Assembly (NCBI GenBank): GCA_965222125.1
Contig: CBDCTC010000006.1
Coordinates: forward strand, 408,435 to 472,434
Reading direction: 5' to 3'
Source: Dehalococcoidia bacterium
GTDB taxonomy: Bacteria; Chloroflexota; Dehalococcoidia; Lucifugimonadales; CAZENU01
Length of the DNA stretch: 64,000 nucleotides
Shown in pieces: positions 2,684 to 61,110 of the stretch (its first letter is position 1; each line of letters begins with the position of its first letter). The position numbers and the translations under genes are program-made. The notes beneath the pieces were generated by a model. It was not told the origin of the DNA, searched no databases, and saw only the letters and a program-made list of their open reading frames with translations.

Positions 2684-2697
2684 CTACCAGGATGCTA

Positions 2698-24600: not shown

Positions 24601-27600
24601 GGAAGACCGGGGGTTCGTTCACGTCGGTTACGCTGACATCCACGTCGGCGCTGTCGTCGAAGCCGATGTCGTCGTCGCCGTCGGCGTTCCGGCTGTCCCG
24701 CACCTTGACCCTCAGTCTGTAGGCCGCCTTCTCCTCCCGGTTGGCGGGCTCCTTCAGGGCCAGGACCCCGCCGCTGCTCAGGGTGAACTCGTCGTGATCC
24801 CCGGTGGTGGTGTCCAGTTCGTAGAACAGGGTGTCGTCGTCGGCGTCTTCGTCCCTGGCCGCCAGGGTCCCCACGCTGGTGACGCCCTCCAGGATGCTGA
24901 ACTCGACGTCGGCCAGCACCGGGGGTTCGTTCAGGTCGGTGACCGTGACCTCCACCGCCGCGCTGGCGCTGTTGCCGGCGCCGTCGGTGGCGATCACCGT
25001 CAGGTTGTGGGTCCCCTTGCGCTCGTGGTCCAGGGCCGCCTTCGTCTGCAGCTGCCCGCTGGACGAGCCGACGGCGAAGTTGGCCCCGTCCGTTCCCCCA
25101 AGGGTGTAGGTCAGCGTGGCCCCCGCGTCCGGGTCGGCGGCGGTGATCGGGTCGCCGATGTCGGTCCCGGGCGCCGTGTTCTCCGCCACGCTCCGGGTGG
25201 TGGTGGCGGCGGGGAAGACCGGGGCCTCGTTGACGTCGGTTACGTTGACCGTCACCTCGATGCTGGCGTCGACCGCCGGGGTCGCCTCGACTGAGCCGTC
25301 GGCGTCCCTGCCGTCGGAGGCGTTCACCGTCAGCTTATAGGACCTCTTGGCCTCGTAGTCCAGGGCCCCCTTGGTCTGCAGCTGGCCCGTGGCCGGGTCG
25401 ATGGCGAAGTGGCCGTCGTCCTCCGTCGCGCCCAGGCTGTAGCTCAGCGTGGCCCCCGCGTCCGGGTCCTGGGCCCTGACCGGGGCGCCGATGTTCGCCT
25501 TGGCGGCGGTGTTCTCCGCCACGCTCCGGGTGGTGGTGGCGGCCGGGAAGACCGGGGGTTCGTTCACGTCGGTTACGCTGACATCCACGTCGGCGCTGTC
25601 GTCGAAGCCGGTGTCGTCGTCGCCGTCGGCGTTCCGGCTGTCCCGCACCTTGACCCTCAGTCTGTAGGCCGCCTTCTCCTCCCGGTTGGCGGGCTCCTTC
25701 AGGGCCAGGACCCCGCCGCTGCTCAGGGTGAACTCGTCGTGATCCCCGGTGGTGGTGTCCAGTTCGTAGAACAGGGTGTCGTCGTCGGCGTCTTCGTCCC
25801 TGGCCGCCAGGGTCCCCACGCTGGTGACGCCCTCCAGGATGCTGAACTCGACGTCGGCCAGCACCGGGGGTTCGTTCAGGTCGGTGACCGTGACCTCCAC
25901 CGCCGCGCTGGCGCTGTTGCCGGCGCCGTCGGTGGCGATCACCGTCAGGTTGTGGGTCCCCTTGCGCTCGTGGTCCAGGGCCGCCTTCGTCTGCAGCTGC
26001 CCGCTGGACGAGCCGACGGCGAAGTTGGCCCCGTCCGTTCCCCCCAGGGTGTAGGTCAGCGTGGCCCCCGCGTCCGGGTCGGCGGCGGTGATCGGGTCGC
26101 CGATGTCGGTCCCGGGCGCCGTGTTCTCCGCCACGCTCCGGGTGGTGGTGGCGGCGGGGAAGACCGGGGCCTCGTCCACGTCGGTTACGTTGACCGTCAC
26201 CTCGATGCTGGCGTCGACCGCCGGGGTCGCCTCGACTGAGCCGTCGGCGTCCCTGCCGTCGGCGGCGTTCACCGTCAGCTTATAGGACCTCTTGGTCTCG
26301 TAGTCCAGGGCCCCCTTGGTCTGCAGCTGGCCCGTGGCCGGGTCGATGGCGAAGTGGCCGTCGTCCTCCGTCGCGCCCAGGCTGTAGCTCAGCGTGGCCC
26401 CCGCGTCCGGGTCGGCGGCCCTGACCGGGGCGCCGATGTTCGCCTTGGCGGCGGTGTTCTCCGCCACGCTCCGGGTGGTGGTGGCGGCCGGGAAGACCGG
26501 GGGTTCGTTCACGTCGGTTACGCTGACGTCCACGTCGGCGCTGTCGTCGAAGCCGGTGTCGTCGTCGCCGTCGTCGTTCCGGCTGTCCCGCACCTTGACC
26601 CTCAGTCTGTAGGCCGCCTTCTCCTCCCGGTTGGCGGGCTCCTTCAGGGCCAGGACCCCGCCGCTGCTCAGGGTGAACTCGTCGTGATCCCCGGTGGTGG
26701 TGTCCAGTTCGTAGAACAGGGTGTCGTCGTCGGCGTCTTCGTCCCTGGCCGCCAGGGTCCCCACGCTGGTGACGCCCTCCAGGATGCTGAACTCGACGTC
26801 GGCCAGCACCGGGGGTTCGTTCAGGTCGGTGACCGTGACCTCCACCGCCGCGCTGGCGCTGTTGCCGGCGCCGTCGGTGGCGATCACCGTCAGGTTGTGG
26901 GTCCCCTTGCGCTCGTGGTCCAGGGCCGCCTTCGTCTGCAGCTGCCCGCTGGACGAGCCGACGGCGAAGTTGGCCCCGTCCGTTCCCCCAAGGGTGTAGG
27001 TCAGCGTGGCCCCCGCGTCCGGGTCGGCGGCGGTGATCGGGTCGCCGATGTCGGTCCCGGGCGCCGTGTTCTCCGCCACGCTCCGGGTGGTGGTGGCGGC
27101 GGGGAAGACCGGGGCCTCGTCCACGTCGGTTACGTTGACCGTCACCTCGATGCTGGCGTCGACCGCCGGGGTCGCCTCGACTGAGCCGTCGGCGTCCCTG
27201 CCGTCGGCGGCGTTCACCGTCAGCTTATAGGACCTCTTGGTCTCGTAGTCCAGGGCCCCCTTGGTCTTCAGCTGGCCCGTGGCCGGGTCGATGGCGAAGT
27301 GGCCGTCGTCCTCCGTCGCGCCCAGGCTGTAGCTCAGCGTGGCCCCCGCGTCCGGGTCGGCGGCCCTGACCGGGGCGCCGATGTTCGCCTTGGCGGCGGT
27401 GTTCTCCGCCACGCTCCGGGTGGTGGTGGCGGCGGGGAAGACAGGGGGTTCGTTGGGGCGTTGGATGCCGAACTCCTGCCAGGTGGGCGCTGTGTCATCG
27501 TCAAAGTCCGCGTTGAGCACCGGGTACTCGGCATCGCTGCCGAAGTCCCATGGGTTGTCCCCGAGGGGAATGTCTTGGCCAGTGTCATCGCCCCAGATTA

Positions 27601-30600
27601 AGTCAACGTCCCATTCAGAGTGGAGGCCCTCGTACTTGGTGGACTTCTGCAACTGCTCGGTGGTCAGCCCTCTGCCGCCGGCGCTTGTCTTCAGCCCGGA
27701 GGTTTCGGTATCCCAGTAGCTACTCACGATCTGGCTGCCGAGGCCCGGCGCTTGTATGCCCACCAGCCCGCCGACATCTCTGACGCCGGTCACCGCGCCC
27801 CTGGAGTAGCTCACCGTGATGGAACCGGGCTTGCCAGCGCTGTCCCCATTTTGGCCCACTAGCCCCCCGACGTTGTTATTGCCGGATACCGCGCCGGTGG
27901 CATAGCTGGCCAGCACGGTGCCTTCGTTGAGGGCGACCAGCCCGCCAGCCCTTCCCAGGGACCCGGTGGCCTCCACTGCGGCCTGAGAATAGGACACCTC
28001 AATATGCCCCTTGTTGCGACCCGCCAGGCCACCGACGTAACTGGAGCCGCTGACCGAGACGCCAGCAGAGTCCATGAAGCCCTTGGAGATGCCGACGTAG
28101 CTGGCTTCGATGATGCCGGAGTTTTCGGCCACCAGTCCGCCCACAGTGGTGCCGATGCCGGTTACGGAACCGGCTACGTAGCTGCGCCGAATCGTTCCAC
28201 CAAGGATTTGCCCGGCCAACCCGCCGACATAAGAATTTCCAGTTACGTCGACGTTATCCAGCCCCAGATGTTGGATGACGCTGCCGGTATCGTCTTCCAG
28301 CCCCAAGGAGCCGAACAGCCCCAGATAGTATTCCGCCGGCCGGTTGATGAACAGGTTGGATATGACGTGGCGGTTGCCCTCGAACTCGCCGCTGTACGTG
28401 TCCACTTCAAGAGCGACAGCGCCTCCTACGCGGTACTCCCTGGTAACTCCCAGAATGGGCTTCCAGCCCTTGCCGTCGTTCCAGTAGGCGTCGCCGGAGC
28501 TGGGCCCCTCGGTGCTGTCGGTGTCGAAGTCCAGGTCGGCCTCCAGTTCGTAGCCGGTGCAGCCGCTGTCGGGGCAGCCCATGTTGGGGAGGGGCTTGGG
28601 GAAGGCGGCGTAATAGCTGGTGGCGTCAACGTGGAGGGGAGTTCCCTTACCCTCCCAGTCCCAGCGGACGGCGTCAAGCTGGGACAGAGTGGTGATTTCA
28701 ATTAGGTGGTCATTATCGGCGTCGTAATCCACCGAATCTACGGACCCTTCGTCCACGTCGGTTACGTTGATCGTTACTCGGACAGTGATCTTCTGCTGGT
28801 CGGAGGCGGTGGCGGTCAGGAGTACGATGTAGGAACTTTTGGTCTCGTAGTCCAGGGCGAGCTTGGTCTTCAACTGGCCGTTTTTAGGGTTTATCTCAAA
28901 AAACGCGGCATCCCCCGTATTGGAGGGCGGAGAGTCAACTCCTTCCAAACCGTAGGTGGGCGCCGGACCGTTCAGGGCGATAGCGGTCACCGGCTTACCG
29001 ATGGCCAGGCCAGCCCCGGAGTTCTCTGCCACATTGCGCTGGACGTTGGGTCCCTCGAGGAAGATGGGTGAACCGGCGGGTCTTTGATCGCCGAACTCCT
29101 CCCAGGTGGCTTTGCCGTCGTTGTCGAAGTCCACCTTAAGAACCGGGTAGTTGAACTCCGAGCCGAAGTCCCATGGGTCGTCCACGTCAGTGGCGAGGTC
29201 GTTGTCCTCGTCGGCGTTGTCCCAGTCGATGTTCCAGTCGGCGTAAATGTCCGAGCCGGTCCCATACTCGGTGGGGCTTCTCAGTTCGGCGGTGGTCTTG
29301 CCCACACCGTCGGCGGCGCTGACCGTCTGCCTGGAGGTTTCCGTGTTCCAATAGCTGTTGGTGACAGTGCCGCTTCGATCCCATCCCACCAACCCGCCAT
29401 ATGGCTGCGGGGCGCTTACCTTGCCGGTGGAGTAGCTGCCGGTAACGCTGCCGTCAGCCAGCATACCCACCAGCCCGCCAGCCATGTAGGTGCCGGTCAC
29501 ATCACCGGTGGAGTAAGAGGCCGTTATGCGGCCGCGGTAATTGGCGCCCGCCAAGCCGCCGACATAGCTATTCCGGCTGGGGTCGTTGAGCGCGTTGGCT
29601 TGAGAATAGCTGGCGTGGATGGAGCCTGTGTTATAGCCCACCAGTCCGCCCAGGTCTCTGGAACTGCTGACGGAGCCGGAACTGTAGCTGACCTCGATGA
29701 TACCGGCGTTATAGCCCGCCAGTCCGCCCACGATGGAGTCGCCCTCAATGTCCCCGGCAACTCCGATGCGCTGAACCATGCCGCTATTCCTAACGAATCC
29801 GACCAGTCCGCCCACTCGGTTCTTCCCGGTTACCTGTACGCCCTCCAGCTTCAGTCCGTAAACTCTACCGCCGATAACGCCGAACAGTCCCTGATAGTCC
29901 TCAGTGGGCCGTTGGATGTGCAGGTTGGAAATGGTGTATTGATTGCCTGCGAAGACGCCGGTGTACGGATGGTAGAGGCCGCCGATGGACTGCCAGCCTT
30001 TGCCGGCGTTCCAGTAGTCATCGCCGGAGCTGGGCCCCTCGGTGCTGTCGGTGTCGAAGTCCAGGTTCGCCACCAGCTCATATCCCTTGCAGCCGCTGTC
30101 GGGGCAGCCCATGTTGGGCTTGGGCCTGGGGAAGCCCCTGAAATAGGCAGCGGCGTCGGCCCGCGCCGGGATTCCGTCGCTGTCCAGGTCGTGGCGGATG
30201 GCGTCTAAGTGGGCCAGGGTGGTGATATCGATGAAGCCATTATCATCGGCGTCATAGTCCACCGACACCCCGGACCCTTCGTCCACGTCGGTTACGTTGA
30301 TGGTCACCTCAATGCTGTCGGTCTCCCCGGCGGTGTCGGTGGCGGTCAGGTCTATGGTGTAGGAACTTTTGGTCTCGTAGTCCAGGTTGAGCTTGGTCCT
30401 CAGCTGTCCGGTGGCGGGGTCCACTGTAAAATAATGGTGGTCGCCGCTGCTCATGGTTTCCAGGTGGTAGACCATCTCCCGGCTCCCGCCGTCGCGGTCG
30501 GTGGCGACCAGGGGACGGCCGAGGGCCACGCCGGGCAGGGCGTCCTCCGCCACGGTGCGTTTGGCGGAATCCCCGGCCCTGAAGATCGGCGGCATGATGC

Positions 30601-33600
30601 GATCCTGACTGCCGAACTCCTGCCAAGTGGCCCGGCCGTCGTCGTTGTAGTCCGCCTTCAGCAACGGGTAATGGCTGTCCAACCCGAAGTCCCACGGGGC
30701 ATCGCCGTCGCCATCGCCGTTCAGGTCCAGGTTCCAAGCGGCGTAGATACCCCTGTAGCCTGTGAGCCCTTTCAGCTCGGCGGATGTCTTGCTTAATCGG
30801 GCGGGGACATTCGTCCCATGACCGGCTCCTGCCACTGCTGAGGAGGTTTGAACGTCCCAGTAGCTGTTGACGAAGCCGCCGCCTGCCATCCAACCCACCA
30901 GCCCGCCCGCAAATCTGCCAGCCACTCTCACAGTGGTGTAGCTGGCTGCGACACTGCCAAGGTTATAGCCCACCAACCCGCCAGCGGCAATGTCGGCGCT
31001 CGCTTTCCCGGTGGCGTAGCTGGCTCTTATAGAGCCACGATGGTCTCCAACGAGACCGCCAGCCCATCCTCTAACCCCCAGCAGCGTGGTGGCGGCGATG
31101 TCTTTGGCGGTCACCTCGACTTGGGCGTAGCTGGCCTGGACCGTCCCATAGTTCAAGCCAATCAGCCCCCCGGCGACGGCTCCGGTCACCGAGCCGGCAA
31201 AATAGCTGGCCGTGACGGTGCTGCCCAGCATATTGCTGCCCACCAGGCCACCGGCTGAGGCTTCTCCGCCGTTGACGGAGCCAGTAGCGTAACTGCTCCG
31301 AATCGAACTGGACGCCCTAGTTCGTCCAGTCAGGGCGCCGGTGCTGGCGCCGCCGGTTATGTCCACATTCTCCAGCCCCAAGTTGCGAACCGCCCCCTGG
31401 ATATCTCCGAACAGGCCTTGGAAGCCGTCGGCAGCGTCGGGACGATTGATGAATAGATTGGAAATAACGTGCCTGTTGCCCTCGAAGACGCTGGTGTACG
31501 GGCCGGAATTGTCGCCGATGGACTGCCAGCCCTTGCCGCCGTTCCAGTAGGCGTCGCCGGAGCTGGGCCCCTCGGTGCTGTCGGTGTCGAAGTCCAGGTT
31601 GCCCATCAACTCGTATCCCTTGCAGCCGCTGTCGGGGCAGCCCATGTTGAGGGCGGGCCTGGGGAAGCCGGCGTAATAGCTGGCAGCGTCGGCGGAGAGA
31701 GGAGCTCCCTGACCCTTCCGGTCCCAGCGGACGGCGTTCAGATGGGACAGAGTGGTGATATCAATTAGGCCGTCATCATCGGAGTCATAGTCCACCGAAT
31801 TCCCGGAGCCTCCGTCCACGTCTTTTACATGGATGTATACCACGATGGAGGTCCGATTGTTGTCTATGTCGGTGGCGATTACGCGCATGTCATGAGAACG
31901 CCGGCTCTCGTAGTCCAGAGTGCGTAGGGTCTTGATCTGGCCGCTGTCAGGGTCTATCTCAAAAAATGCATAGTCCCTCGCAAAGACGGGGTGAGGGCCT
32001 ATTGTTTCCAGACTGTAGGTGGGCGCCGGACCGTCCGGGTCGAAGGCGGTCACCGGATTACCAATCTCCAGACCGGCCCCGGCGTTCTCTGCCACGCTGC
32101 GTCGCACGGGAGATTCCGCGTGGAAGACGGGCGGGCGCACGGGGCGCTGTTGGCCGAATTCCTGCCAGGTGGCCCGTTTGTCCCCATCGAATTTCACCTT
32201 CAGCGCCGGGTATTCGTCGTTGGCCCCGAAGTCCCACGGGTCGTCCGGACCAGTGGAGTATTGGCCGTCCTCATCTTCGTTGTCCCAGTCGATGTTCCAG
32301 GCGGAGTATTGAGCCGGGAAGCTGCCGTATGCGGTGGGGCTTCTCAGTTGGGCGGTGGTTCTTCCTTGCCCACCGAGTGTACCGGCCACCTCGCCGGCGC
32401 TGCTCGTCTGAGTGGAGGATTCGGTGTTCCAGTAAGTGCTGACGTGGACACTGCTGTTGGCTTCCGCCTTCCCCACCAGCCCGCCAACATCGACATTCCC
32501 CAGGCTGGTCACCCTGCCGGTGGAATAGCCGGTTAGTATGGAGCCTGCATTTACGCCCACCAGCCCGCCAATGCCAACTGGGTTGGCTGTCTGGCCGGTG
32601 GTCACCTGGCCGGTGGCGTAGCTGGCTAGAATTGTGGCTCCGGCATCATTTCTGCCCACCAATCCGCCGATGGATGCTGTACCGATTACGCGGGCCTGGG
32701 AGTAGCTGACCCTGATGAAGCCTTTGTTTACGCCCACCAGTCCGCCGATAGTGCTGTCGCCGGTTATGCTGCCGGTGGCGTAGCTGGCCTGGATGTCGCC
32801 TTCATTGTAGGCCGCCAGTCCTCCGACTCCGCCGAGGACGGCCGAGAGGGAGGCGTCGCTGACGGAACTGCGCTTGATCGAACTTCCGGCTGTGGCGGAT
32901 CCCGTGATTCCGCCAACTGCAAACTTAGCGTGTATTGTGACGTTCTTCAGCCTGAGGTTGCGAACCTCACCACCGATTGCGGCGAACAGGCCCGCGTAAT
33001 TCTTGTCAGGGCGAGAGATGTACAGGGTGGATATGGAGTGGCGGTTGCCCTCGAAGGCGCCGCTGTACGGCACATCCTTGCTGCCGATGGGCGCCCAGCC
33101 CAGGCCGCCGTTCCAGAAGGTGGCGTCCGCGCCGGTAATCGTATTGTCGTTGTTCTCATCGAAATCCAGGTTTCCAATCAGTTCGTAGCCTATGCAGCCG
33201 CTGTCGGGGCAGCCCATGTTGGCGGCGGGCCTGGGGAAGGCGGCGTAATACTTGGCGGCGTTGGCGCGGGGAGGCTCTCCCCTCCCCTCGCGGTCCCAGC
33301 GGACGGCGTTCAGCTGGGACAGCGTGGTGATATCAATTAGGCGGTCATTATCGAGGTCGTAATCCACCGAATTTCCGGAGCCTTCGTCCACGTTTCTTAC
33401 ATTGACGATTACCTCCTTGCTGGTCTGATGGCCGTCTATGTCTGTTGCGATCACGAGCAGGCGGTAAGAACTTTTGGTTTCGTAGTCCAGCGTGCGCTTG
33501 GTCTTCAGTTGGCCGCTGACCGGATCCATCGCAAAGTATTCGGCATACTGTCCGCCGAGGCCGTATCCGGGCGCCGGGCCGTCCGGGTCGAAGGCGGTCA

Positions 33601-36600
33601 CCGGCCTACCAATGTTCAGACCGGCCCCGGCGTTCTCCGCCTCGCTGCGTTGCACGGCGGATTGCTCGTGGAAGACGGGCGGGCGCACGGGGCGCTGTTC
33701 GCCGAACTCCTGCCAGGTGGGCGACTTGCCGTCATAATTGAAGTCCACCTTCAGCGCCGGGTATTCGTTGCTGGCCCCGAAGTCCCACGGGTCGTCCTTG
33801 TCAGTGGCAAGGTCGTTGTCGTTGTCGGCGTTGTCCCAGTCGATGTTCCAAACGGCGTAAATGTCCGAGCCAGTGCCGTAGTCGGTGGGGCTTCTCAGTA
33901 GGGAAGTGATCTTGGACGTCCCGGCGGCGCTGTCCGTCTGACCGGAGGATTCGGCGTTCCAGTAGCTGCGGGCTGTGAGGCCGATGCCCACTTTCCCCAC
34001 CAGCCCGCCAATATCGGCTTCGGAATTCCTCGGGGCGGTCACCCGGCCGGTGGAATAGCTGTTTTGTATGACGCCGTCATTACTGCCCACCAACCCGCCA
34101 ATTTTAACTGCTGCGTTGGCTGTCTGGCGGGCGGTCACCTGTCCGGTGGCGTAGCTGGCTTGAATTATGCCTCCGTTGTGATTGTAGCCCACCAGCCCGC
34201 CGATGTTTCCCCCGGATAGCGTATTGGTTACGCTGGCTTGGGAGTAGCTGACCTTGATGAAGCCCCTGTTTGAGCCCACCAGCCCGCCGATCCCCCCGGC
34301 GCCCCCGGTGCCGCTTATGCTGCCGGTGGAGTAGCTGGTCTGGATGTCGCCTTCATTGTAGCCCACCAGTACGCCGATTCCATTGCGGCCGTCCACGGAA
34401 CCGTTGACGGAACTGCGCTTAATCGAACTCCCGGAGGCGGCGTGTCCCGTGATTCCGCCAACCAGAGACTGAGCGCGTATTTTGACGTTCTTCAGCCTGA
34501 GGTTGCGAATCTCACCACCGATTGCAGCGAACAGGCCCGCGTAATTTTGATCGGTACGGCGGATGTACAGGTTGTATATGAAATGGCGGTTGCCCTCGAA
34601 GACGCCGCTGTACGGCTCATCCCGGCTGCCGATGGGCGCCCAGCCCAGGCCGCCGTTCCAGAAGGTGGCGTCCGCGCGGGTAATCGTATTGTCGTTGTTC
34701 TCATCGAAATCCAGGTTTCTAATCAGTTCGTAGCCTATGCAGCCGCTTTGGGGGCAGCCCAAGCCGTCAACGGCATTGGGGAAGGCAGCGTTGTAGCTGC
34801 CGCGGTTGGCTCTGTCGTCGGCCGCTCCGTCGCCGTCCAGGTCCCAGCGGACGGCGTTCAACTGGTCCAGCGTGTTGATTGAAATCAGGCCGTCGCCGTT
34901 GTCGTCGTAGGCGACCCCGCCCAGCAGACCCCGCTTCGGTCGGGTCCAGGCGCCGGCGCCCTCGGAGTTAAGGGCGCGTGCCCGCATCTCGTACAGGCCG
35001 ACCGGGACTCCGGGCTTAACTGACAGAGCAAAGGAGGAGGGTCTCGGTACCTCGGGATAATCCTCTGTTACGCTGGGGCCGTTTTGCCAGGGTCCCCACG
35101 CCCACCTATCCGGGTCGGTTCCGGTGCGTAGCCGGTATTGCACTTCGTAGGAGGTTGTGAACGGGGTGATGTGTTGGAGATAGGTAGAAATCTTCGACCG
35201 GTCGGGCTGCTCCCATTGGGCCAACAGCTCTCTGCTGCCGACTTCGCCGGTTACCGTGAATCGCGCGGGCGGCGGCGGAACCAGCTTCCACTGGTCGCCA
35301 AACTCCTGCCAGGTAAACTCTGAATCGCCGTCCCAGTTCACCTTCAGCGCCGGGTAGAGACTCGCGTGCCCGAAATCCCATCTATTGCCGGGCCAATTTA
35401 CATAGATGTTCTGCACTCCCGCGGTGTCCGGGTCGATGTCTTTGAGTGCATCGGTGGGATAACGCATCTGAATGCCGGTCTTGCCGTAGCGGTCGGCAGG
35501 GGGGACGTTGGGGCCAGTCGCCAACTCGGTGTTCCAGTAGCTTCTTGCAACTGACAGGTTGGCATTGGTGCTATGGCCGAACAGTCCGCCTAAATTCTGG
35601 GGGGGGGTAATGCCCGGCTTGGCCGTGACCGGGCTGATGGTGTAGCTGTTGCTGATGAAGGCTGCGGTGGATCCCTCAATTAACCCGACCAGTCCTCCCG
35701 CATTCCCGGGGACTATCGTAAGTTCCTCTCGCTTGTAGGCGCTCCCGGTGACCGTCACGCTGCCAGTGGAATAGGAATCGAGGACATATCCGCCTTTCAT
35801 GACGCCCACCAAGCCGCCGAGTCGATCCGTGCCCTCCACCTGGGCGGTGGAGTAGCTGTATTCAACGCTGCCGCCTTTTATGTAACCAACGAGTCCCCCG
35901 AGGGTGGACTTGCCCCTCACCATCGAGCCGCCGGACGCATAAACCTCGCTGATTTGGGATTCGCCCGCTGCTTCCCCCACCAGCGTGCCCACCATGTCAC
36001 GGCCGGTTACTTCAGCGCCGACTAGCCCCAGGTTCCGGATGTGGGCGCCAGTGAAGGTGCGACCAAACAGCCCCAAAAAGTCATCGTCGGGGCGATTGAT
36101 CCGCAGGTTGCGAATGATGTGGCCATTGCCTACAAAGACCGCAGTTAAGGAGTAGAAACCATAGCCGATAGGACGCCAGTTGGAAAAGTCGGTCTCGTTC
36201 CGGTCCAAGCGGCCGTTGCCGTTGCTGTCGAAGTCAGTGAGGTTGACCTCGCCATCCCCGTTGACATCGAAATTCAGGTGTTCCGTCAGCTCGTAGCCTT
36301 TGCAGCCGCTCGAGGGACAGCCCATTCTCGCTGACGGGTTGGGGAATGCGACGGCGTAGCGGCCCTGATTGGCGTCTTCGTCCACCGTTCCGTCGCCGTT
36401 CAGGTCGTAGCGAATGGCGCCCAGTTGAAGGAGGTTGGAAACCTCAATCAGCCCGTCGTTGTTGTCGTCGTAGTCGGTGGTGGCGGACTGGGCTGCGGCC
36501 GGGCTTGCCGAAAAGAGGAGCAGCGCTACGGCGGCCAGCGCCAGCAGCAGGGCGGAACAGGCTATCCAGACCCTGGTTCCCCTCACCGTCTCGCCCTTCC

Positions 36601-36631
36601 TGAGCCGAAGTCGGGGGGGGGGTAGCACCAA
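21644..36631 (-). CDS. giant secreted modular protein (GLUG beta-helix repeats, Ca-binding DxDxDG segments, cadherin and FN3 domains), up to 4995 aa
   Basis: Signal peptide ...WIACSALLLALAAVALLLFSASPAAAQS. Seven supermodules start at DYDxDxDGLI..L.QLNAxRWDL.GDG and carry many GGLVG (GLUG) repeats. Cadherin-like ...VAENT..G..IG.PV.A.DPD...LTY.L...F.ID..SGQL.T...LDYE... and FN3 ...SF.VTW.AP...I.GY..QY. The probable true start is GTG 36586 behind AGGAAGGG. Confidence 0.9.
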   Translation of the reverse strand: MVLPPPRLRLRKGETVRGTRVWIACSALLLALAAVALLLFSASPAAAQSATTDYDDNNDGLIEVSNLLQLGAIRYDLNGDGTVDEDANQGRYAVAFPNPSARMGCPSSGCKGYELTEHLNFDVNGDGEVNLTDFDSNGNGRLDRNETDFSNWRPIGYGFYSLTAVFVGNGHIIRNLRINRPDDDFLGLFGRTFTGAHIRNLGLVGAEVTGRDMVGTLVGEAAGESQISEVYASGGSMVRGKSTLGGLVGYIKGGSVEYSYSTAQVEGTDRLGGLVGVMKGGYVLDSYSTGSVTVTGSAYKREELTIVPGNAGGLVGLIEGSTAAFISNSYTISPVTAKPGITPPQNLGGLFGHSTNANLSVARSYWNTELATGPNVPPADRYGKTGIQMRYPTDALKDIDPDTAGVQNIYVNWPGNRWDFGHASLYPALKVNWDGDSEFTWQEFGDQWKLVPPPPARFTVTGEVGSRELLAQWEQPDRSKISTYLQHITPFTTSYEVQYRLRTGTDPDRWAWGPWQNGPSVTEDYPEVPRPSSFALSVKPGVPVGLYEMRARALNSEGAGAWTRPKRGLLGGVAYDDNGDGLISINTLDQLNAVRWDLDGDGAADDRANRGSYNAAFPNAVDGLGCPQSGCIGYELIRNLDFDENNDNTITRADATFWNGGLGWAPIGSRDEPYSGVFEGNRHFIYNLYIRRTDQNYAGLFAAIGGEIRNLRLKNVKIRAQSLVGGITGHAASGSSIKRSSVNGSVDGRNGIGVLVGYNEGDIQTSYSTGSISGTGGAGGIGGLVGSNRGFIKVSYSQASVTNTLSGGNIGGLVGYNHNGGIIQASYATGQVTARQTANAAVKIGGLVGSNDGVIQNSYSTGRVTAPRNSEADIGGLVGKVGIGLTARSYWNAESSGQTDSAAGTSKITSLLRSPTDYGTGSDIYAVWNIDWDNADNDNDLATDKDDPWDFGASNEYPALKVDFNYDGKSPTWQEFGEQRPVRPPVFHEQSAVQRSEAENAGAGLNIGRPVTAFDPDGPAPGYGLGGQYAEYFAMDPVSGQLKTKRTLDYETKSSYRLLVIATDIDGHQTSKEVIVNVRNVDEGSGNSVDYDLDNDRLIDITTLSQLNAVRWDREGRGEPPRANAAKYYAAFPRPAANMGCPDSGCIGYELIGNLDFDENNDNTITGADATFWNGGLGWAPIGSKDVPYSGAFEGNRHSISTLYISRPDKNYAGLFAAIGGEVRNLRLKNVTIHAKFAVGGITGSATAGSSIKRSSVSDASLSAVLGGVGGLAAYNEGDIQASYATGSITGDSTIGGLVGVNKGFIRVSYSQARVIGTASIGGLVGRNDAGATILASYATGQVTTGQTANPVGIGGLVGVNAGSILTGYSTGRVTSLGNVDVGGLVGKAEANSSVHVSTYWNTESSTQTSSAGEVAGTLGGQGRTTAQLRSPTAYGSFPAQYSAWNIDWDNEDEDGQYSTGPDDPWDFGANDEYPALKVKFDGDKRATWQEFGQQRPVRPPVFHAESPVRRSVAENAGAGLEIGNPVTAFDPDGPAPTYSLETIGPHPVFARDYAFFEIDPDSGQIKTLRTLDYESRRSHDMRVIATDIDNNRTSIVVYIHVKDVDGGSGNSVDYDSDDDGLIDITTLSHLNAVRWDRKGQGAPLSADAASYYAGFPRPALNMGCPDSGCKGYELMGNLDFDTDSTEGPSSGDAYWNGGKGWQSIGDNSGPYTSVFEGNRHVISNLFINRPDAADGFQGLFGDIQGAVRNLGLENVDITGGASTGALTGRTRASSSIRSSYATGSVNGGEASAGGLVGSNMLGSTVTASYFAGSVTGAVAGGLIGLNYGTVQASYAQVEVTAKDIAATTLLGVRGWAGGLVGDHRGSIRASYATGKASADIAAGGLVGYNLGSVAASYTTVRVAGRFAGGLVGWMAGGGFVNSYWDVQTSSAVAGAGHGTNVPARLSKTSAELKGLTGYRGIYAAWNLDLNGDGDGDAPWDFGLDSHYPLLKADYNDDGRATWQEFGSQDRIMPPIFRAGDSAKRTVAEDALPGVALGRPLVATDRDGGSREMVYHLETMSSGDHHYFTVDPATGQLRTKLNLDYETKSSYTIDLTATDTAGETDSIEVTINVTDVDEGSGVSVDYDADDNGFIDITTLAHLDAIRHDLDSDGIPARADAAAYFRGFPRPKPNMGCPDSGCKGYELVANLDFDTDSTEGPSSGDDYWNAGKGWQSIGGLYHPYTGVFAGNQYTISNLHIQRPTEDYQGLFGVIGGRVYGLKLEGVQVTGKNRVGGLVGFVRNSGMVQRIGVAGDIEGDSIVGGLAGYNAGIIEVSYSSGSVSSSRDLGGLVGYNTGSIHASYSQANALNDPSRNSYVGGLAGANYRGRITASYSTGDVTGTYMAGGLVGMLADGSVTGSYSTGKVSAPQPYGGLVGWDRSGTVTNSYWNTETSRQTVSAADGVGKTTAELRSPTEYGTGSDIYADWNIDWDNADEDNDLATDVDDPWDFGSEFNYPVLKVDFDNDGKATWEEFGDQRPAGSPIFLEGPNVQRNVAENSGAGLAIGKPVTAIALNGPAPTYGLEGVDSPPSNTGDAAFFEINPKNGQLKTKLALDYETKSSYIVLLTATASDQQKITVRVTINVTDVDEGSVDSVDYDADNDHLIEITTLSQLDAVRWDWEGKGTPLHVDATSYYAAFPKPLPNMGCPDSGCTGYELEADLDFDTDSTEGPSSGDAYWNDGKGWKPILGVTREYRVGGAVALEVDTYSGEFEGNRHVISNLFINRPAEYYLGLFGSLGLEDDTGSVIQHLGLDNVDVTGNSYVGGLAGQILGGTIRRSYVAGSVTGIGTTVGGLVAENSGIIEASYVGISKGFMDSAGVSVSGSSYVGGLAGRNKGHIEVSYSQAAVEATGSLGRAGGLVALNEGTVLASYATGAVSGNNNVGGLVGQNGDSAGKPGSITVSYSRGAVTGVRDVGGLVGIQAPGLGSQIVSSYWDTETSGLKTSAGGRGLTTEQLQKSTKYEGLHSEWDVDLIWGDDTGQDIPLGDNPWDFGSDAEYPVLNADFDDDTAPTWQEFGIQRPNEPPVFPAATTTRSVAENTAAKANIGAPVRAADPDAGATLSYSLGATEDDGHFAIDPATGQLKTKGALDYETKRSYKLTVNAADGRDADGSVEATPAVDASIEVTVNVTDVDEAPVFPAATTTRSVAENTAPGTDIGDPITAADPDAGATLTYTLGGTDGANFAVGSSSGQLQTKAALDHERKGTHNLTVIATDGAGNSASAAVEVTVTDLNEPPVLADVEFSILEGVTSVGTLAARDEDADDDTLFYELDTTTGDHDEFTLSSGGVLALKEPANREEKAAYRLRVKVRDSRNDDGDDDTGFDDSADVDVSVTDVNEPPVFPAATTTRSVAENTAAKANIGAPVRAADPDAGATLSYSLGATEDDGHFAIDPATGQLQTKGALDYETKRSYKLTVNAADGRDADGSVEATPAVDASIEVTVNVTDVDEAPVFPAATTTRSVAENTAPGTDIGDPITAADPDAGATLTYTLGGTDGANFAVGSSSGQLQTKAALDHERKGTHNLTVIATDGAGNSASAAVEVTVTDLNEPPVLADVEFSILEGVTSVGTLAARDEDADDDTLFYELDTTTGDHDEFTLSSGGVLALKEPANREEKAAYRLRVKVRDSRNADGDDDTGFDDSADVDVSVTDVNEPPVFPAATTTRSVAENTAAKANIGAPVRAQDPDAGATLSYSLGATEDDGHFAIDPATGQLQTKGALDYEAKRSYKLTVNASDGRDADGSVEATPAVDASIEVTVNVTDVNEAPVFPAATTTRSVAENTAPGTDIGDPITAADPDAGATLTYTLGGTDGANFAVGSSSGQLQTKAALDHERKGTHNLTVIATDGAGNSASAAVEVTVTDLNEPPVLADVEFSILEGVTSVGTLAARDEDADDDTLFYELDTTTGDHDEFTLSSGGVLALKEPANREEKAAYRLRVKVRDSRNADGDDDIGFDDSADVDVSVTDVNEPPVFPAATTTRSVAENTAAKANIGAPVRAQDPDAGATLSYSLGATEDDGHFAIDPATGQLQTKGALDYETRRSYKLTVNASDGRDADGSVEATPAADASIEVTVNVTDVNEAPVFPAAEFSIAEGVTEVGKLDAEDPDAGEILFYALEATGDHDYFTLDSASGALAFKATPIRKARASHDPATRTTLYSLKVKVRDGRDANGDRDTAFDDTAKITVRATDLNGGTDYDSDNDGLIDVDTLAKLNAIRWDLNGDGAVDVSANQASYAAAFPNARADMGCPDTDDNPNTPNCIGYELIENLNLDTDGSEDANSIDTYWNAGKGWDPIGTGANPFTAIMEGNRHTIPNLFIDRRVPGASLGSNHNGLFGYIGADYSPDALETATNRRVSIRRLGLINVDVTGGDNMTGALVGTNATGIITACYSTGRVSGATLSRNSVGGLVGHNNIAGVVEDSYSSADVYARRGEAGGLVGSNNRGSRILASYATGDVQSPQGDAGGLAGFNGGFIKNTYATGNVESGSAAGGLVGVNQWTIINSYSTGSLPAWYKPGGLIGKSALQPGWEDPVPPTVSQSYWNTETSGQGSSPPGGVGATTAELQGTITFTGIYQQWDDYTDLLDRAGSEMAWDLGSASQYPALKADWDGDGIETVAEFGSQARSASRSTRSVGTPPGQPAAPEIINVVQTSFRVTWTAPAAGSSTITGYGIQYKLGGAEDSAYAGVQPTPTGTVTGYNLVNRSGQSVAKGTSYAVRVRASNAEGWGPWSDPAVATTAGAAPAPANQAPVFAAATATVSVAENTAAGTDIGVPVTATDPDGGDTLTYTLGTTADDDHFAIDSASGQLQTQGALDYEGKSSYSVTVTATDGGGLSASIAVSITVTDVADTPPGQPAAPEIINVKETSFRVTWAAPAAGSSTITGYGIQYKLTGAADSAYADVKPAPTGTGTGYNLVNRSGQTVAEGTSYAVRVRASNAAGWSPWSDAAVATTAGAAPVPAN
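24265..27442 (-). repeat. ~3.4 x 945-bp tandem units (three cadherin domains each) inside giant gene 1
   Basis: Antisense ORFs recur every 945 nt (24464, 25409, 26354, 27299). The protein repeats FPAATTTRSVAENTAAKANIG...SVTDVNEPPV with only a few substitutions. Confidence 0.85.
36613..36622 (-). repeat. poly-C tract (C10 on the coding strand), 26 nt upstream of the probable start of giant gene 1
   Basis: Plus strand G10. The context CTA-C10-GACTTCGGCTCAGGAAGGG is shared with the gene 2 leader. Confidence 0.9.
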
Positions 36632-36844
36632 GTATTAGAAGCGCCTTCGCGCTCCTGGACGGCCAAGTATGGTGGCTGTCGAGTGCTATACCCAGTCTGC
36701 TGCGTTCTACCACGTTGTTTTTATGCGAACGGCGACGGCATCATATCCGACTTTTCAGCAAAATTAAACCTTTGCAACATATTATCAGGGTAATCTAGAT
36801 CGTATTGCGTAAGGAAGGGCCAGTACTGCACCCAGGGGGTATGG

Positions 36845-40401: not shown

Positions 40402-43400
40402 CTACTTGGTCGTGCCGCTCGACGACACCCAGTCGCTACTCCCCGCGGAGTTGACGGCCCGCACCCGCACGTCATAGGAGAGGCCTCCGCCGAGGAAGTC
40501 AATCGTGACCCTACTGACCGTGCTGTCGTGGGGGAAATCAAGCCAGTATTTGTCGATGCTCAACTTGTACTGCACCTCAAAGTGGGTGATGGGCGGCTTG
40601 CCCGTCATGTCCGGCATGTTCCAGGTGAGCCGCAGTTTGGAGTACCCCGGGGTCACCTCGAGGTTCGTGGTTGCGCCCGGCGGCACGGGCGTAACCGGCG
40701 CCGCCGTGGGCGTGCCCTGTGCGCTTGCCCAGACGCTGTTCCCCTCGGCATTCTTGGCCCGCACCCGCACCTTGTATGTGGAACCGGCGGTGAGGCCCTG
40801 GATCGTTGTGCCTGTGCCGCTGTGGGAGTGATCGTTCCAGTCAGTGGCCGTGACCAACTTGTACTGTACGTCGTAGCCGGTGACGGGCGGCTTGCCCCTC
40901 ATGTCCGGCGCGGACCAGGAGACCCGTATCCCGTTGACCTCTTCAAACACCGCTAAGCCCGGGAGCGCGCCCGGCGGCTCGTCCACGTTGGTGACGGTGA
41001 TGGTCACGGCGGTGGTGTCCGAGCCGCCATTCCCGTCGCTCACGTTCACGGTCACCGAATAGGAGTTCTGGCCCTCGTAGTCCAGCGCTCCGCTGGTCTG
41101 GAGCCGGTTGCCGGAGAGAGCGAAGTGGCCGGAGTCGGCGCCGCTCAGCGCGTAGGTCAGCGAGTCGCTGTCGGGATCGGTGGCCGCCAGGGGGAGGCCG
41201 ATGTCTTGGCCGGCCGGCGTGTTCTCTGCCACGCTGCGGCTGGCGCTGGCGCCCTCGTCGAAGGACGGCGCGCGGTTGGCCTGCGGCGGGGCCACCACCG
41301 GCGCCTCGTTCACGTTGGTGACGGTGATGGTCACGTCGATGGTGTCCGTCCCGCCGCGGCCGTCGGAGACGTACACGGTGACCGCGTAGGAGCTCTTGAC
41401 CCCCGCATAGTCCCCGCTGGTCCGCAGTTGGTTGCCGGAGAGAGCGAAGTGGCCGGAGTCCGTTCCGCCCAGCGCGTAGGTCAGCGAGTCGCTGTCGGGG
41501 TCGGTGGCCGCCAGGGGCAGGCCGATGTCGGTCCCGGCCGGCGTGTTCTCTGCCACGCTGCGGCTGGCGCTGGCGCCCTCGTCGAAGGACGGCGCGCGGT
41601 TGGCCGGCGGCGGGGCCACCACCGGCGCCTCGTTCACGTTGGTGACGGTGATGGTCACGTCGATGGTGTCCGTCCCGCCGCGGCCGTCGCTCACGGTCAC
41701 GGTCACCGCGTAGGAGTTCTTGACCCCCTCGTAGTCCAGGGCGCCGCTGGTGCGCAGTTGGTTGCCGGAGAGGGCGAAGTGGCCGGAGTCCGTTCCGCCC
41801 AGCGCGTAGGTCAGCGAGTCGCTGTCGGGGTCGGTGGCCGCCAGGGGCAGGCCGATGTTCCTGCCCGCCGGCGTGTTCTCCGCCACGCTGCGGCTGGCGC
41901 CGGCGCCCTCGTCGAAGGACGGCGCGCGGTTTGGCGTCGGTGTGGGCGTCGTCGCCACCGGCGGCGCGTCCACGGCGGTGACGGTGATGGTGATGTCGAG
42001 GACGTCCACTCCGCCCTTGAGGTCGCCCACGACCACCTCGAACGAATACGAGCTCTTGGTCAGGGGCCTGCCGACTTTGATCTGGCCGCTCCCGCTGCCG
42101 ATGCTGAAGTGGCTGGAGTCCGCTCCACTGACCATGTAGAAGAGGGCGTCGCCATCCTGGTCGGTAGCCGTGACGGGCCTGCCCACGCGGACGCCCCGCG
42201 AGGACCCCGCCACCACGCTGCGGGTCGCCGAGGCGCCTTCCCGGAAGACCGGGTCCCTGTTGGCGCGGCCTCCGGTTACCGTGATGATGACCCCGATAAC
42301 GTCGAGCCTGCCCTTTCCGTCCGTAGCGAGCAGTTGGATGGTGTACTCGTCCGCGGGCCCCAGCTTCCTGGCAGTCCTCAGTTGACCGGTCAGCCGGTCC
42401 ACGGTGAAAGGCGACGACCTGGTGTAGACGCTATAGAAGGGCCCTGCCATGCCGGCGGAGACGGTCGCCGTGACCGGGGCGCCCACGGCCGTGCCGACGG
42501 GAGCGTAGGCGTCAACCGTGCGTCTGGCGACGCCCACCTTGTCGAAGGCCAGGGTCCCGGTGGGCGCCACCGGCGTCGGCGTGACCGTCGGCGCTTCGTC
42601 CACGTTGGTGACGGTGATGGTCACGGCGATGGTGTCCGTCCCGCCGCGGCCGTCGGAGACGGTCACGGTCACCAAGTAGGAGCTCTTGCCCTCGTAGTCC
42701 AGGGCGCCGCTGGTCCGGAGCCGGTTGCCGGCGAGGGCGAAGTGGCCCGAGTCCGTTCCGCCCAGCGCGTAGCTCAGCGAGTCGCTGTCGGGGTCTGTGG
42801 CCGCCAAGGGGAGACCGATGTCCTGGCCGGACGCCGTGTTCTCCGCCACGCTGCGGCTGGCGCTTGCGCCCTCGTCGAAGGACGGCGCGCGATTGGCAGG
42901 CGGCGGGACCACTCCCGGCGGCTCGTTCACGACGTCGGTGACGTCGATGGTCACGGTGATGCTGTCCGTCCCCCCGTTCCCGTCGGAGACGGTCACGACG
43001 ACGGTGTAGCGGTTATTGCTCTCGTAGTCCAGGGCGCTCTTGGTCTTCAACTGACCGGAGGCCCAGTCGATGGCGAAGTGGCCGTGGTCGCCGGTGGTGG
43101 CGTCGATGGCGTAAACGAGCGTGTCCCCAGCGTCCGCGTCGGTGGCTGCTATGGGCAACCCGATGTTGGTCCCGGCTGCGGTGTTCTCCGCCACGCTGCG
43201 CGTCGTGCTGGCGCCGTCGGTGAAGACCGGGACGGCATTGCTGACGGGCGGCGCGGTCGGCACGCCGGTGTCGGGCGACGTCCAGGAACCGTCGCCGTCG
43301 GCGTTGGTGGCCCGCACCTGCACCCGGTAGGTATCGCCGGCGGTGAGGCCGGTTATCTTGGCCGAGGTCCCGGTCCCCGCGTGGGCGTGGTTCACCCAAT

Positions 43401-60529: not shown

Positions 60530-60563
60530 GAGCCCGCCTGCCCACTTCCTGACCGCAAAAATC

Positions 60564-60580
60564 GGGGGGGGGGGGGGGGG
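60564..60580 (-). repeat. poly-C tract (C17 on the coding strand), 34 nt upstream of the ATG of giant gene 2
   Basis: Plus strand G17. The context is CTA-C17-GATTTTTGCGGTCAGGAAGTGG. Confidence 0.9.
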
Positions 60581-60690
60581 TAGAAAAACGCCGCCGGCGC
60601 AGCGTCGCGCTAACGGCAGATTGGGCTAGGGTCGGGGCGTTGGACATTGTTCTATCGTCTCCTTCACCTGTGATAATGGCGGACTTCGCT

Positions 60691-61110
60691 CTACGCCCAG
60701 GCGGTGGTGGCCGGGACCAGCCTGCCGTGGGCCGGGTCCACTGCCAAGCGCAGCCCTTCCAGCGTGTAGGGCCCCAACAGGGCGCGGGCGTCGTCATTCC
60801 CGAAGACCACCAGGGTGGCCTCGGTGCGTCCGTCGATGGTGGCCCGAGCTTCCCCGATGTCGTACTCCACGGGCCGCCCGTCGGCCAGCACGAGGCTGAT
60901 CTTGTCGATGGGCGACACCCCAATGTCCCGCAGCAGGTTGGCGGGCACGATGGCGTAGCTGGCCCCGGTATCCACCATCGCCTCTATCTCCAGCGACCGT
61001 TGGCCGTCCATGCTCTCCAGCCGGATGGGCCAGTTGAAAACGCCCAAATCCCTCACTCCCTTTGCGCCGTGTTTCCAAGGGACTATTCTACGAGTCGGGC
61101 ATTCTACCAT
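60691..61110 (-). CDS. retropepsin-like (clan AA) aspartyl protease
   Basis: ...LEIEAMVDTGASYAIVPANLLRDIGV... has the DTGA active-site motif in the usual context. The start is uncertain. Confidence 0.65.
   Translation of the reverse strand: MVECPTRRIVPWKHGAKGVRDLGVFNWPIRLESMDGQRSLEIEAMVDTGASYAIVPANLLRDIGVSPIDKISLVLADGRPVEYDIGEARATIDGRTEATLVVFGNDDARALLGPYTLEGLRLAVDPAHGRLVPATTAWA

What the first reader, a model, noticed from the sequence alone, without database searches (positions are those of the whole stretch)
36584..36640. Poly-C (C10) tract in a conserved leader upstream of giant gene 1: candidate slipped-strand phase-variation switch
- On the coding strand the gene 1 leader reads CTTGGTG-CTA-C10-GACTTCGGCTCAGGAAGGGCGAGACG-GTG.
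- The gene 2 leader reads GTTTTT-CTA-C17-GATTTTTGCGGTCAGGAAGTGGGCAGGCGGGCTC-ATG.
- The flanks (CTA before the tract, GA(C/T)TT...G(G)(C/T)TCAGGAAG(G/T)GG after it) are shared, while the tract length differs (10 versus 17).
- The tract lies 26 nt (gene 1) or 34 nt (gene 2) upstream of the probable start, in the 5' UTR or core-promoter spacer.
- Homopolymeric C/G tracts in promoter spacers are an established mechanism of on/off or graded switching of surface proteins, for example in Bordetella fim promoters and Neisseria opc/porA.
- The ORF-track start (TTG 36631) would read the tract as Pro-Pro-Pro. GTG 36586, behind AGGAAGGG and followed directly by the signal peptide, is more plausible.
Basis: partly seen in the sequence, partly recalled or inferred. 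Interest (0 to 1): 0.7.

Follow-up and report, generated by a model that had tools for sequence, protein, structure and literature searches.

The report
Hypervariable poly-C switch in giant adhesin genes
The runs of C in front of the two giant surface-protein genes are real, recur in front of related genes in many Dehalococcoidia genomes and differ in length between near-identical copies, so they look like classical slippage-prone on/off switches that most likely act on translation (reading frame) and not on the promoter.

Summary
C10 lies at 36613-36622 and C17 at 60564-60580, both on the minus (coding) strand, 26 and 34 nt before the probable starts of two giant GLUG/cadherin genes.

The same CTA-Cn-GAyTTT module precedes related genes in about ten leader families from Dehalococcoidia genome bins, apparently sponge-associated. 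In the gene 2 family the flanks are 92-100% identical, yet n is 7, 10, 15, 17, 18, 18 and 23. A sister leader type has n = 14, 12 and 8. The tract is therefore hypermutable, which supports the slipped-strand idea.

The proposed promoter-spacer or 5'-UTR placement is not supported in general. In 6 of 7 independent families with n of 10 or more, an ATG sits 64-81 nt upstream and reads into the tract (control frequency 0.15). Four families have no start codon between the tract and the signal-peptide core, so there the tract lies inside the coding sequence. One has a clear promoter, ribosome-binding site and ATG upstream.

The best reading is a frame-shifting (translational) phase switch. It is probably leaky or graded in the window, because both genes have a second start after the tract.

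Gene 1 is the weakest case. It has the short C10, no upstream ATG and its own well-spaced ribosome-binding site, and no orthologues were found to compare.

This is a new member of a known kind.

The parts
36613..36622 (-). C10 homopolymer (the finding), context CTA-C10-GACTT
   Evidence: homologous position to the tracts of gene 2, L002, L013, L015 and L020
36594..36601 (-). AGGAAGGG, Shine-Dalgarno-like, 7 nt before GTG 36586
   Evidence: read directly; flagged as SD
21644..36586 (-). Giant gene 1 (about 4980 codons from GTG 36586): signal peptide, GLUG, M26-N-like and cadherin domains
36626..36631 (-). TTG and GTG, in frame with gene 1 at n = 10, 2-3 codons before the tract, preceded by an in-frame TAA; no ribosome-binding site
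36583..36666 (-). 27-codon ORF (TTG start, no SD) that crosses the tract and stops at a TGA overlapping the gene 1 GTG (GTGA); possible remnant of the leader ORF
   Evidence: frame 1: LAVQEREGASNTWCYPPPDFGSGRARR*; tentative similarity to the L071 leader
60564..60580 (-). C17 homopolymer before gene 2, context TTTTTCTA-C17-GATTTTTGCGG
   Evidence: n = 15, 23, 10, 18, 18, 7 in the same leader elsewhere
60441..60647 (-). Leader ORF: ATG 60647, MSNAPTLAQSAVSATLRRRRFST + Pro run. At n = 17 it runs 68 codons out of frame across the gene 2 start
60659..60664 (-). AAGGAG, ribosome-binding site of the leader ORF (11 nt before the ATG); a GGAG core is kept in all family members despite surrounding changes
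60673..60678 (-). CATTAT, possible -10 box upstream of the leader ORF (ATTAT shared with the L001 and L002 leaders). Inference only
60588..60604 (-). Short GC hairpin followed by TTTTT immediately before CTA-C17 (terminator-like, weak)
58877..60529 (-). Giant gene 2, first 550 codons from ATG 60529 (signal peptide, GLUG)
40402..59106 (-). Giant gene 2, remaining 6234 codons in another frame (frameshift at AAA 59015-59017)
60691..61046 (-). Retropepsin-like small gene directly upstream of the gene 2 leader, conserved in the same position in relatives; its promoter-like site TTGCCG-18-TAGAAT is at 61101-61130

Best explanation
The C10 and C17 runs are copies of a conserved, hypermutable poly-C module (consensus YTA-Cn-GAyTTT) at the 5' end of giant secreted GLUG/cadherin protein genes of Dehalococcoidia.

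In its complete form the module has a promoter, a ribosome-binding site and an ATG. About 22-26 leader codons follow, then the C run (read as proline in any frame), then the positively charged and hydrophobic parts of the signal peptide.

Replication slippage changes n. This changes the frame that joins the leader ATG to the body of the gene, which is translational phase variation.

In the window and its closest relatives a second start codon lies just after the tract, so three states are possible:
- leader fused in frame to the protein;
- leader ORF stopping at a TGA that overlaps the main start (ATGA or GTGA), which allows re-initiation;
- leader ORF running 45-70 codons out of frame over the main start, which should interfere with it.

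Gene 2 (n = 17) is in the third state. Gene 1 (n = 10) has lost the leader ATG and has its own good ribosome-binding site, so its tract is probably a weakened or relic switch.

Shown: the tract exists, recurs, varies in length, and lies downstream of an ATG and inside the coding sequence in several families. Inferred: slippage within populations, translation of the leader, and any effect on expression.
For: Recurrence:
- 12 of the 18 C/G runs of 8 or more in 446 kb of related loci are leader tracts, all C on the coding strand.
- Including the proteins recovered later, there are about 10 leader families.

Hypervariability:
- Gene 2 family: n = 17, 15, 23, 10, 18, 18, 7.
- Sister leader type: n = 14, 12, 8.
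- L001 family: n = 8, 14, 12, 6.
- Flanks stay 92-100% identical. L013 and L017 have flanks 100% and 98.7% identical with n = 14 and 12. L012 and L072 have a downstream flank 100% identical with n = 23 and 18.

Upstream ATG:
- An ATG 64-81 nt upstream is open into the tract in 6 of 7 independent families with n of 10 or more. The control frequency is 0.15, giving a binomial p of about 7e-5.
- The leader starts M-x-N in five families, and MFNH is the true start of a tract-free homologue, L042.

Tract inside the coding sequence:
- L060, L062, L064 and L070 have no ATG, GTG or TTG between the tract and the hydrophobic core.
- L070 has a 10/12 promoter match, AAGGAG, an ATG and an in-frame C24.
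- L071 is an in-frame C21.

Other support:
- A stop overlapping the main start occurs in one frame in three unrelated leader types.
- The gene 2 ATG lacks a well-spaced ribosome-binding site.
- No Rfam family and no significant RNA fold were found.
- Precedent: in Gardnerella nanH3 a poly-C run of 8-14 lies about 100 nt into the ORF.
Against: - No read-level data, so slippage within a population is inferred from differences between assemblies. Homopolymer consensus errors of 1-2 nt cannot be excluded.
- Gene 1 has no ATG leader ORF, has its own ribosome-binding site, and no orthologue was found to test variation of its C10.
- Both window genes have a start downstream of the tract, so expression may not depend on n.
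- The few substitutions in the gene 2 leader ORF are mostly non-synonymous, so the leader peptide sequence itself is not clearly under selection.
- The TA and GA flanks are conserved regardless of the leader frame, which points to a nucleotide-level constraint that the frame-shift model does not explain.
- Among loci found without bias, in-frame fusions are only 2 of 15.
Confidence: 0.6

Rival explanations
1. Transcriptional switch: the C run is the spacer of a promoter, or lies between an activator site and a -10 box. Its length then sets promoter strength, as in the Bordetella fim or Neisseria opc promoters.
For: - The 3' flank GAyTTT or CATTTT keeps the A2 and T6 positions of a -10 hexamer in five families.
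- TTTCTA-C17-GATTTT in gene 2 gives a 17-nt spacer.
- A weak hairpin plus T5 just upstream could end read-through from the previous gene.
- Bordetella C-stretches reach C19.
Against: - The promoter scan finds no hexamer pair around either tract.
- The hexamers match consensus at only 3 of 6 positions.
- In L060, L062, L064 and L070 a transcript starting after the tract would carry no start codon before the signal-peptide core.
- L070 has a strong promoter, ribosome-binding site and ATG upstream of its tract.
Confidence: 0.12
2. Expression-level recoding without a DNA switch. RNA polymerase slips on the long G template run, or ribosomes stall on the polyproline product in an EF-P-dependent way. 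Every cell then makes a mixture of frames, or a throttled amount of protein, and n tunes the level without turning the gene on or off.
For: - The run is always C on the coding strand, in 21 of 21 loci, and encodes proline in every frame.
- Runs of 10-24 exceed the 8-9 bp RNA-DNA hybrid (own knowledge).
- Most assembled alleles are out of frame with the leader ATG, yet the giant ORFs remain intact.
Against: - Slippage by bacterial RNA polymerase is documented mainly for A/T runs (own knowledge).
- A pure C run, as opposed to mixed proline codons, argues against selection for the peptide alone.
- No data here bear directly on RNA heterogeneity.
Confidence: 0.1
3. RNA-level leader element. The poly-C in the 5' UTR pairs with the G-rich ribosome-binding and start region, or binds a protein or Rho, and so sets translation or termination.
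For: - In the minimum-energy fold of the gene 1 leader the C run pairs with GGUGAGGGG around the start codon.
- Both leaders are G-rich after the tract.
Against: - The folds are no better than shuffled sequence (z = -1.49 and +1.13).
- No such pairing is predicted for gene 2.
- No Rfam match.
- This does not explain the conserved upstream ATG.
Confidence: 0.06
4. No regulatory role. The tract is a mutational relic, or a hotspot for insertion or recombination, carried along at the 5' end of these genes. In gene 1 it is simply decaying.
For: - Gene 1 lacks the leader ATG, and sequence upstream of its tract has no homologue in any fetched locus.
- A pseudogene fragment and an IS lie upstream.
- In L074, L079 and L051 the same element end, CCATACATACCCCTGWCAG, abuts the 5' edge of a C run.
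- Short alleles (C6-C8) exist.
Against: The module is retained in about ten diverged leader families and in a 46% GC genome, where a C24 run is highly improbable. Long, unstable runs are not expected to persist without selection.
Confidence: 0.12

Closest known systems
Gardnerella nanH3 sialidase poly-C tract (bioRxiv 10.1101/2020.09.16.300947)
   Same: - A C run of 8-14 on the coding strand, about 100 nt after the start codon of a secreted, surface-tethered protein.
- Only some lengths keep the frame.
- Annotation often starts after the tract and loses the N-terminus.
   Different: - There the tract follows the complete signal peptide, and off-lengths give truncated peptides.
- Here it precedes the hydrophobic core, is longer (up to 24), sits in an extra N-terminal leader, and in some families is followed by a second start codon.
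- Different phylum. Within-culture variation was shown there and not here.
Neisseria pilC poly-G and opa CTCTT repeats in the signal-peptide coding region; Moraxella catarrhalis mid/hag 5' poly-G (own knowledge)
   Same: A simple repeat between the start codon and the mature part of an adhesin, with frame-dependent on/off switching.
   Different: - Those examples are Proteobacteria and are experimentally proven.
- They have no conserved second start or overlapping stop-start arrangement.
Haemophilus influenzae lic1 (CAAT)n with alternative ATGs (own knowledge)
   Same: The repeat number selects which of several start codons is in frame, giving strong, weak or no expression. This is the nearest analogue to the proposed three states.
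   Different: - lic1 uses a tetranucleotide repeat, and its alternative starts all lie upstream of the repeat.
- Here the alternative start lies downstream, and one frame ends on it.
Bordetella fim2/fim3/fimX C-stretch and Neisseria opc poly-C promoters (PMC1891110; PMC3960869)
   Same: A long poly-C run (up to C19) upstream of a surface-structure gene, with length polymorphism between strains.
   Different: - Those tracts lie between an activator site or -35 box and the -10 box and act on transcription.
- Here no flanking promoter hexamers were found, and several family members need a start codon upstream of the tract.

Membership tests
Simple-repeat contingency locus, translational (frame-shift) type | Homopolymer of about 8 or more in the 5' part of the coding sequence of a surface or secreted protein gene | tested here: met
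   - The tract lies inside the coding sequence in L060, L062, L064, L070 and L071.
- In gene 2 it lies inside an SD-ATG leader ORF.
- For gene 1 this holds only if TTG 36631, GTG 36628 or TTG 36666 are used.
Simple-repeat contingency locus, translational (frame-shift) type | Repeat length differs between closely related genomes while the flanks are conserved | tested here: met
   - Gene 2 family: n = 7-23 with flanks 92-100% identical.
- L001 family: n = 6-14.
- Not testable for gene 1, because no orthologue was found.
Simple-repeat contingency locus, translational (frame-shift) type | Length heterogeneity within one population or culture at high frequency, reversible | not testable with these tools
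   No reads were available. The metagenome DNA scan found no relevant copies.
Simple-repeat contingency locus, translational (frame-shift) type | Length change switches the gene product on or off | tested here: inconclusive
   In silico, the frames give fused, stop-on-start or overlapping leader ORFs. However, the window genes have a start codon after the tract, so dependence on n is unproven.
Simple-repeat contingency locus, transcriptional (promoter-spacer) type | Tract lies between recognisable -35 or activator and -10 elements | tested here: not met
   - No promoter-like pair was found around either tract.
- Only 3 of 6 positions match in each candidate hexamer.
- In L070 the promoter is about 100 nt upstream of the tract.
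Simple-repeat contingency locus, transcriptional (promoter-spacer) type | The start codon of the regulated gene lies downstream of the tract | tested here: inconclusive
   - True for gene 1, gene 2, L002, L013, L020 and L001.
- False for L060, L062, L064 and L070.
Ribosome-arrest or attenuation leader peptide | Short upstream ORF with its own ribosome-binding site and a conserved arrest motif at the peptide level | tested here: inconclusive
   - The upstream ORF and SD are present.
- Only the proline run and the M-x-N start recur.
- The other residues diverge, and substitutions are mostly non-synonymous.
Curated cis-regulatory RNA (Rfam) | Match to a covariance model | tested here: not met
   No match was found in either leader at the gathering threshold or at E up to 1.

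The most novel reading that the evidence does not exclude
The module is a three-state translational rheostat and not a plain on/off frameshift. The same C run, sitting between a leader ATG and a second start codon, selects among three outcomes:
- an N-terminally extended protein;
- termination and re-initiation at an overlapping ATGA or GTGA;
- an out-of-frame leader ORF that occludes the main start.

Polyproline stalling could add an EF-P-dependent input. This would be conserved across giant adhesin genes of sponge-associated Dehalococcoidia. A mobile element that docks at the edge of the C run and brings its own ATG at -65 might rewire the switch.
Probability: 0.2. Interest if true: 0.7.

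Novelty: new member of a known kind. Interest (0 to 1): 0.5.

Why it matters
Phase variation by simple repeats is known mostly from host-adapted pathogens and a few commensals. I found no report of it in Chloroflexota or in sponge symbionts.

Here it is attached to the largest surface proteins of uncultivated Dehalococcoidia. The related genome bins belong to sponge-symbiont lineages.

If the tracts switch these adhesin-like giants on and off, symbiont populations would carry pre-existing surface diversity. That is relevant to evading host phagocytosis or phage.

There is also a practical consequence. Gene callers start these genes after the tract or split them, so their N-termini and leader ORFs are systematically mis-annotated.

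Tried and rejected
- Exact look-ups of the small gene upstream of gene 2, with two possible starts, found nothing on record.
- The single metagenome DNA scan for GGCGTTTTTCTACCCCCCC gave three unrelated or artefactual hits.
- A homologue search with the gene 1 N-terminus gave at most 48% identity, so the variability of gene 1's own C10 could not be tested.
- BLAST of the gene 1 upstream region against all loci found only the GLUG pseudogene fragment.
- RNA folding of both leaders was no better than shuffled sequence.
- Rfam scans found nothing in the leaders.
- I looked for a second slippery run at the points where homologous giant genes are split after 300-400 codons. None was consistent.
- The similarity of the gene 1 upstream sequence to the L071 leader (GGAGCG...GGCGCYTCTAAT) is short. 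MAFFT did not recover it cleanly, so it stays tentative.
- The element abutting C runs in L074, L079 and L051 was followed until it was clear that only its last 20 nt or so plus the run are shared with L051. Its nature remains unresolved.
- A recent-duplication explanation for the shared flanks was rejected: the proteins are 46% identical and the module is spread over many genomes.
Full report
**What is there**

On the minus strand the window carries two giant genes.
- Gene 1 runs from GTG 36586 (or TTG 36631) to 21644.
- Gene 2 starts at ATG 60529 and runs 550 codons to 58877. It then continues in another frame from 59106 to 40402.
- Both begin with a signal peptide followed by a DYD..DGLIEVSNL module, GLUG motifs and cadherin/fn3-type repeats.

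- C10 lies at 36613-36622, 26 nt before GTG 36586.
- C17 lies at 60564-60580, 34 nt before ATG 60529.

With the window's own dinucleotide frequencies, 0.76 C/G runs of 10 or more and 0.00025 runs of 17 or more are expected. C10 alone is unremarkable. C17 and the shared context are not.

**Where the window comes from**

A scan of species-representative genomes with the two N-termini returned 66 loci. Nearly all are from Dehalococcoidia genome bins, with at most 46% protein identity to gene 1.

The gene 2 leader, the small retropepsin-like gene before it and the first kilobase of gene 2 are about 95% identical to several of these bins. Other bins in the list belong to lineages described from sponges. 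The sponge association of the window itself is an inference.

**The tract recurs**

In the 66 loci (446 kb) there are 18 C/G runs of 8 or more. Twelve of them are C runs on the coding strand just upstream of the signal peptide of a GLUG gene.

Further examples came from protein searches and contig look-ups. Together there are about ten leader families. The immediate context is mostly YTA-Cn-GA, often followed by a T run. The 60 nt after the tract are alignable between gene 1, gene 2, L002, L013, L015 and L020. Because the proteins have diverged to 39-46% identity, this is a conserved module and not a recent duplication.

**The tract is hypervariable**

| Leader family | Locus: run length |
|---|---|
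| Gene 2 | window 17; L011 15; L012 23; L015 10; L072 18; L073 18; L075 7 |
| Sister type with an 11-nt deletion after the tract | L013 14; L017 12; L074 8 |
| L001 | L001 8; L048 14; L076 12; L077 and L078 6 |

- Over 150 nt on each side the flanks are 92-100% identical in the gene 2 family.
- L013 and L017 have flanks 100% and 98.7% identical with n = 14 and 12.
- L012 and L072 have a downstream flank 100% identical with n = 23 and 18.
- The contig names of the recovered ENA records are of the metaMDBG type, which implies accurate long reads. Consensus error of one or two bases is possible, but it cannot explain a range of 7-24.

For gene 1 no orthologue exists in the collections searched.

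**Where the tract sits relative to expression signals**

No sigma-70-like hexamer pair flanks either tract.

An ATG lies 64-81 nt upstream and is open into the tract in 6 of the 7 independent families with n of 10 or more. At random positions of the same sequences this happens 15% of the time, giving a binomial p of about 7e-5.
- In gene 2 this is ATG 60647, preceded by AAGGAG. Its GGAG core survives in all relatives although the surrounding bases and spacing change.
- The leader peptides begin M-x-N in five families (MSNA, MFNA, MLNP, MFNH and, from a GTG, MANV).
- MFNH is the genuine start of a tract-free homologue, L042.

Four families (L060, L062, L064, L070) have no ATG, GTG or TTG between the tract and the hydrophobic core of the signal peptide. 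The start codon must therefore be upstream, and the tract is inside the coding sequence.

L070 is the clearest case and comes from a 46% GC genome. It has TTGCTA-18-TATAAT, AAGGAG and an ATG, then 14 codons, TCTA-C24-ATTTT in frame, and then the signal peptide. L071 is a second in-frame example, with C21.

In any frame a C run reads as proline.

**Consequences of n in the window-type leaders**

Where a second start follows the tract (gene 1, gene 2, L002, L013, L020, L001), the three frames after the tract give three outcomes:
- fusion of the leader to the protein (L017, L001);
- a leader ORF that stops at a TGA overlapping the main start, as ATGA, GTGA or TGATG (L011, L072, L013, L020, L076);
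- a leader ORF that runs 45-70 codons out of frame over the main start (gene 2 in the window, L012, L015, L073, L002, L048).

The overlapping stop-start is seen in three unrelated leader types, which is suggestive but statistically weak.

The gene 2 ATG has no well-placed ribosome-binding site, because AGGAAG ends 16 nt upstream. Its translation may therefore depend on ribosomes arriving from the leader ORF. This step is inference.

**Gene 1 specifically**

- Homology with the other leaders starts at CTA-C10. The 240 nt upstream match nothing else.
- Further upstream lie a GLUG gene fragment and an IS.
- There is no ATG leader ORF.
- A 27-codon ORF from TTG 36666 crosses the tract and ends on the GTGA of the main start. 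TTG 36631 and GTG 36628 are in frame at n = 10. None of the three has a ribosome-binding site.
- GTG 36586 has AGGAAGGG 7 nt upstream.

In gene 1 the tract probably lies in an untranslated or weakly translated leader. It is still long enough to slip, but I rate the chance that it controls gene 1 at about one in three.

**Rivals**

- The promoter-spacer model keeps some support from the -10-like GAyTTT after the tract, and from the weak hairpin plus T5 before it in gene 2. It cannot hold for the families without a downstream start codon.
- Polymerase slippage or polyproline stalling could make the output graded and not binary. This fits the exclusive use of C on the coding strand (21 of 21 loci) but is untested.
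- An RNA-structure role has no support.
- A purely neutral relic is unlikely for the family, but possible for gene 1.

**Comparison with known systems**

- The closest documented case I could read is Gardnerella nanH3, with a poly-C run of 8-14 about 100 nt into the ORF of a secreted sialidase. It varies within cultures and confuses annotation.
- pilC, opa, mid/hag and lic1 are analogous from my own knowledge.
- Bordetella fim and Neisseria opc are the transcriptional counterparts.
- Two literature searches found nothing on simple-repeat phase variation in Chloroflexota or on GLUG giants of Dehalococcoidia.

**Verdict**

The slipped-strand interpretation is supported for the family and for gene 2, while the placement in a promoter spacer or UTR is not. 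The most likely mechanism is a reading-frame switch in a 5' coding leader. It is a new member of a known kind, of moderate interest.

Noticed in passing
window 59015-59017 (minus strand), within 58877-59106: Gene 2 is split. The text reads GACGACAAACGACTGC where homologues have DDNDC(T/L)GYEL. One extra A shifts the frame, so the first 550 codons and the remaining 6234 codons are in different frames. This is either a real pseudogene or an assembly error.
   Followed up: partly
window 37283-37318 and 37357-37392; C11 at 37240-37250 (plus strand): Two copies of a 36-nt repeat, GTTGCGGTGAAGCCCCG(G/T)CGGAAGGGCGCTGGCCGG, are separated by a 38-nt spacer, like a two-repeat CRISPR remnant. A third long run (C11 on the plus strand) lies next to it. 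There was no Rfam match.
   Followed up: partly
window 36862-37060 and 37684-39363: Upstream of gene 1 lies a fragment of another GLUG gene (GGLVG repeats ending at a stop at 36862). Beyond it is an IS with 17-nt inverted ends and a DDE transposase (37815-39296, minus strand). The region between the two giant genes has been rearranged.
   Followed up: partly
window 35599-35607 (minus strand): A C9 run lies inside gene 1, about 327 codons in, and reads T-P-P-Q. It is a second slippery run whose change would truncate the protein.
   Followed up: no
L074 549-568; L076 459-482 (= L079 3459-3482); L051 5701-5723: The same sequence, CCATACATACCCCTG(T/A)CAG, abuts the 5' edge of a C8, C12 or C11 run in three loci.
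- In L074 and L079 it is the end of a unit carrying a divergently oriented DDE_Tnp_1 transposase.
- That unit replaces the normal leader of two different gene families and supplies an ATG 65 nt before the run.
- In L051 the flanking parts are present without the transposase, and the run is not followed by a giant gene.
This may be a mobile element that targets or carries C runs.
   Followed up: partly
window 60691-61046, promoter-like site 61101-61130: A small retropepsin-like aspartic protease gene with a strong extended -10 (TGGTAGAAT) sits directly upstream of the gene 2 leader. It is conserved in that position in all relatives.
   Followed up: partly
L013 and L017 versus window 60546-60556: An 11-nt deletion removes the AGGAAG motif after the tract in a sister leader type and changes the main start from CTCATG to AGGTGAGCGTGATG. 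AGGAAG is therefore not essential to the module.
   Followed up: yes
window 2621-2732 (minus strand): A PyrR binding site (RF00515, 54.7 bits, just above the gathering score) is the only curated RNA family found in the window.
   Followed up: no
window 46104-48831 (plus strand): C7 runs (G7 on the coding strand of gene 2) recur every 303 nt ten times, marking near-identical 101-codon tandem repeats inside gene 2.
   Followed up: no
L070-L076 (ENA contigs): Many homologous giant genes are called as a 200-400-codon N-terminal ORF followed at once by the rest of the gene. No common slippery run was found at the break points. The cause, whether pseudogenes or low-coverage consensus errors, is unknown.
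   Followed up: partly
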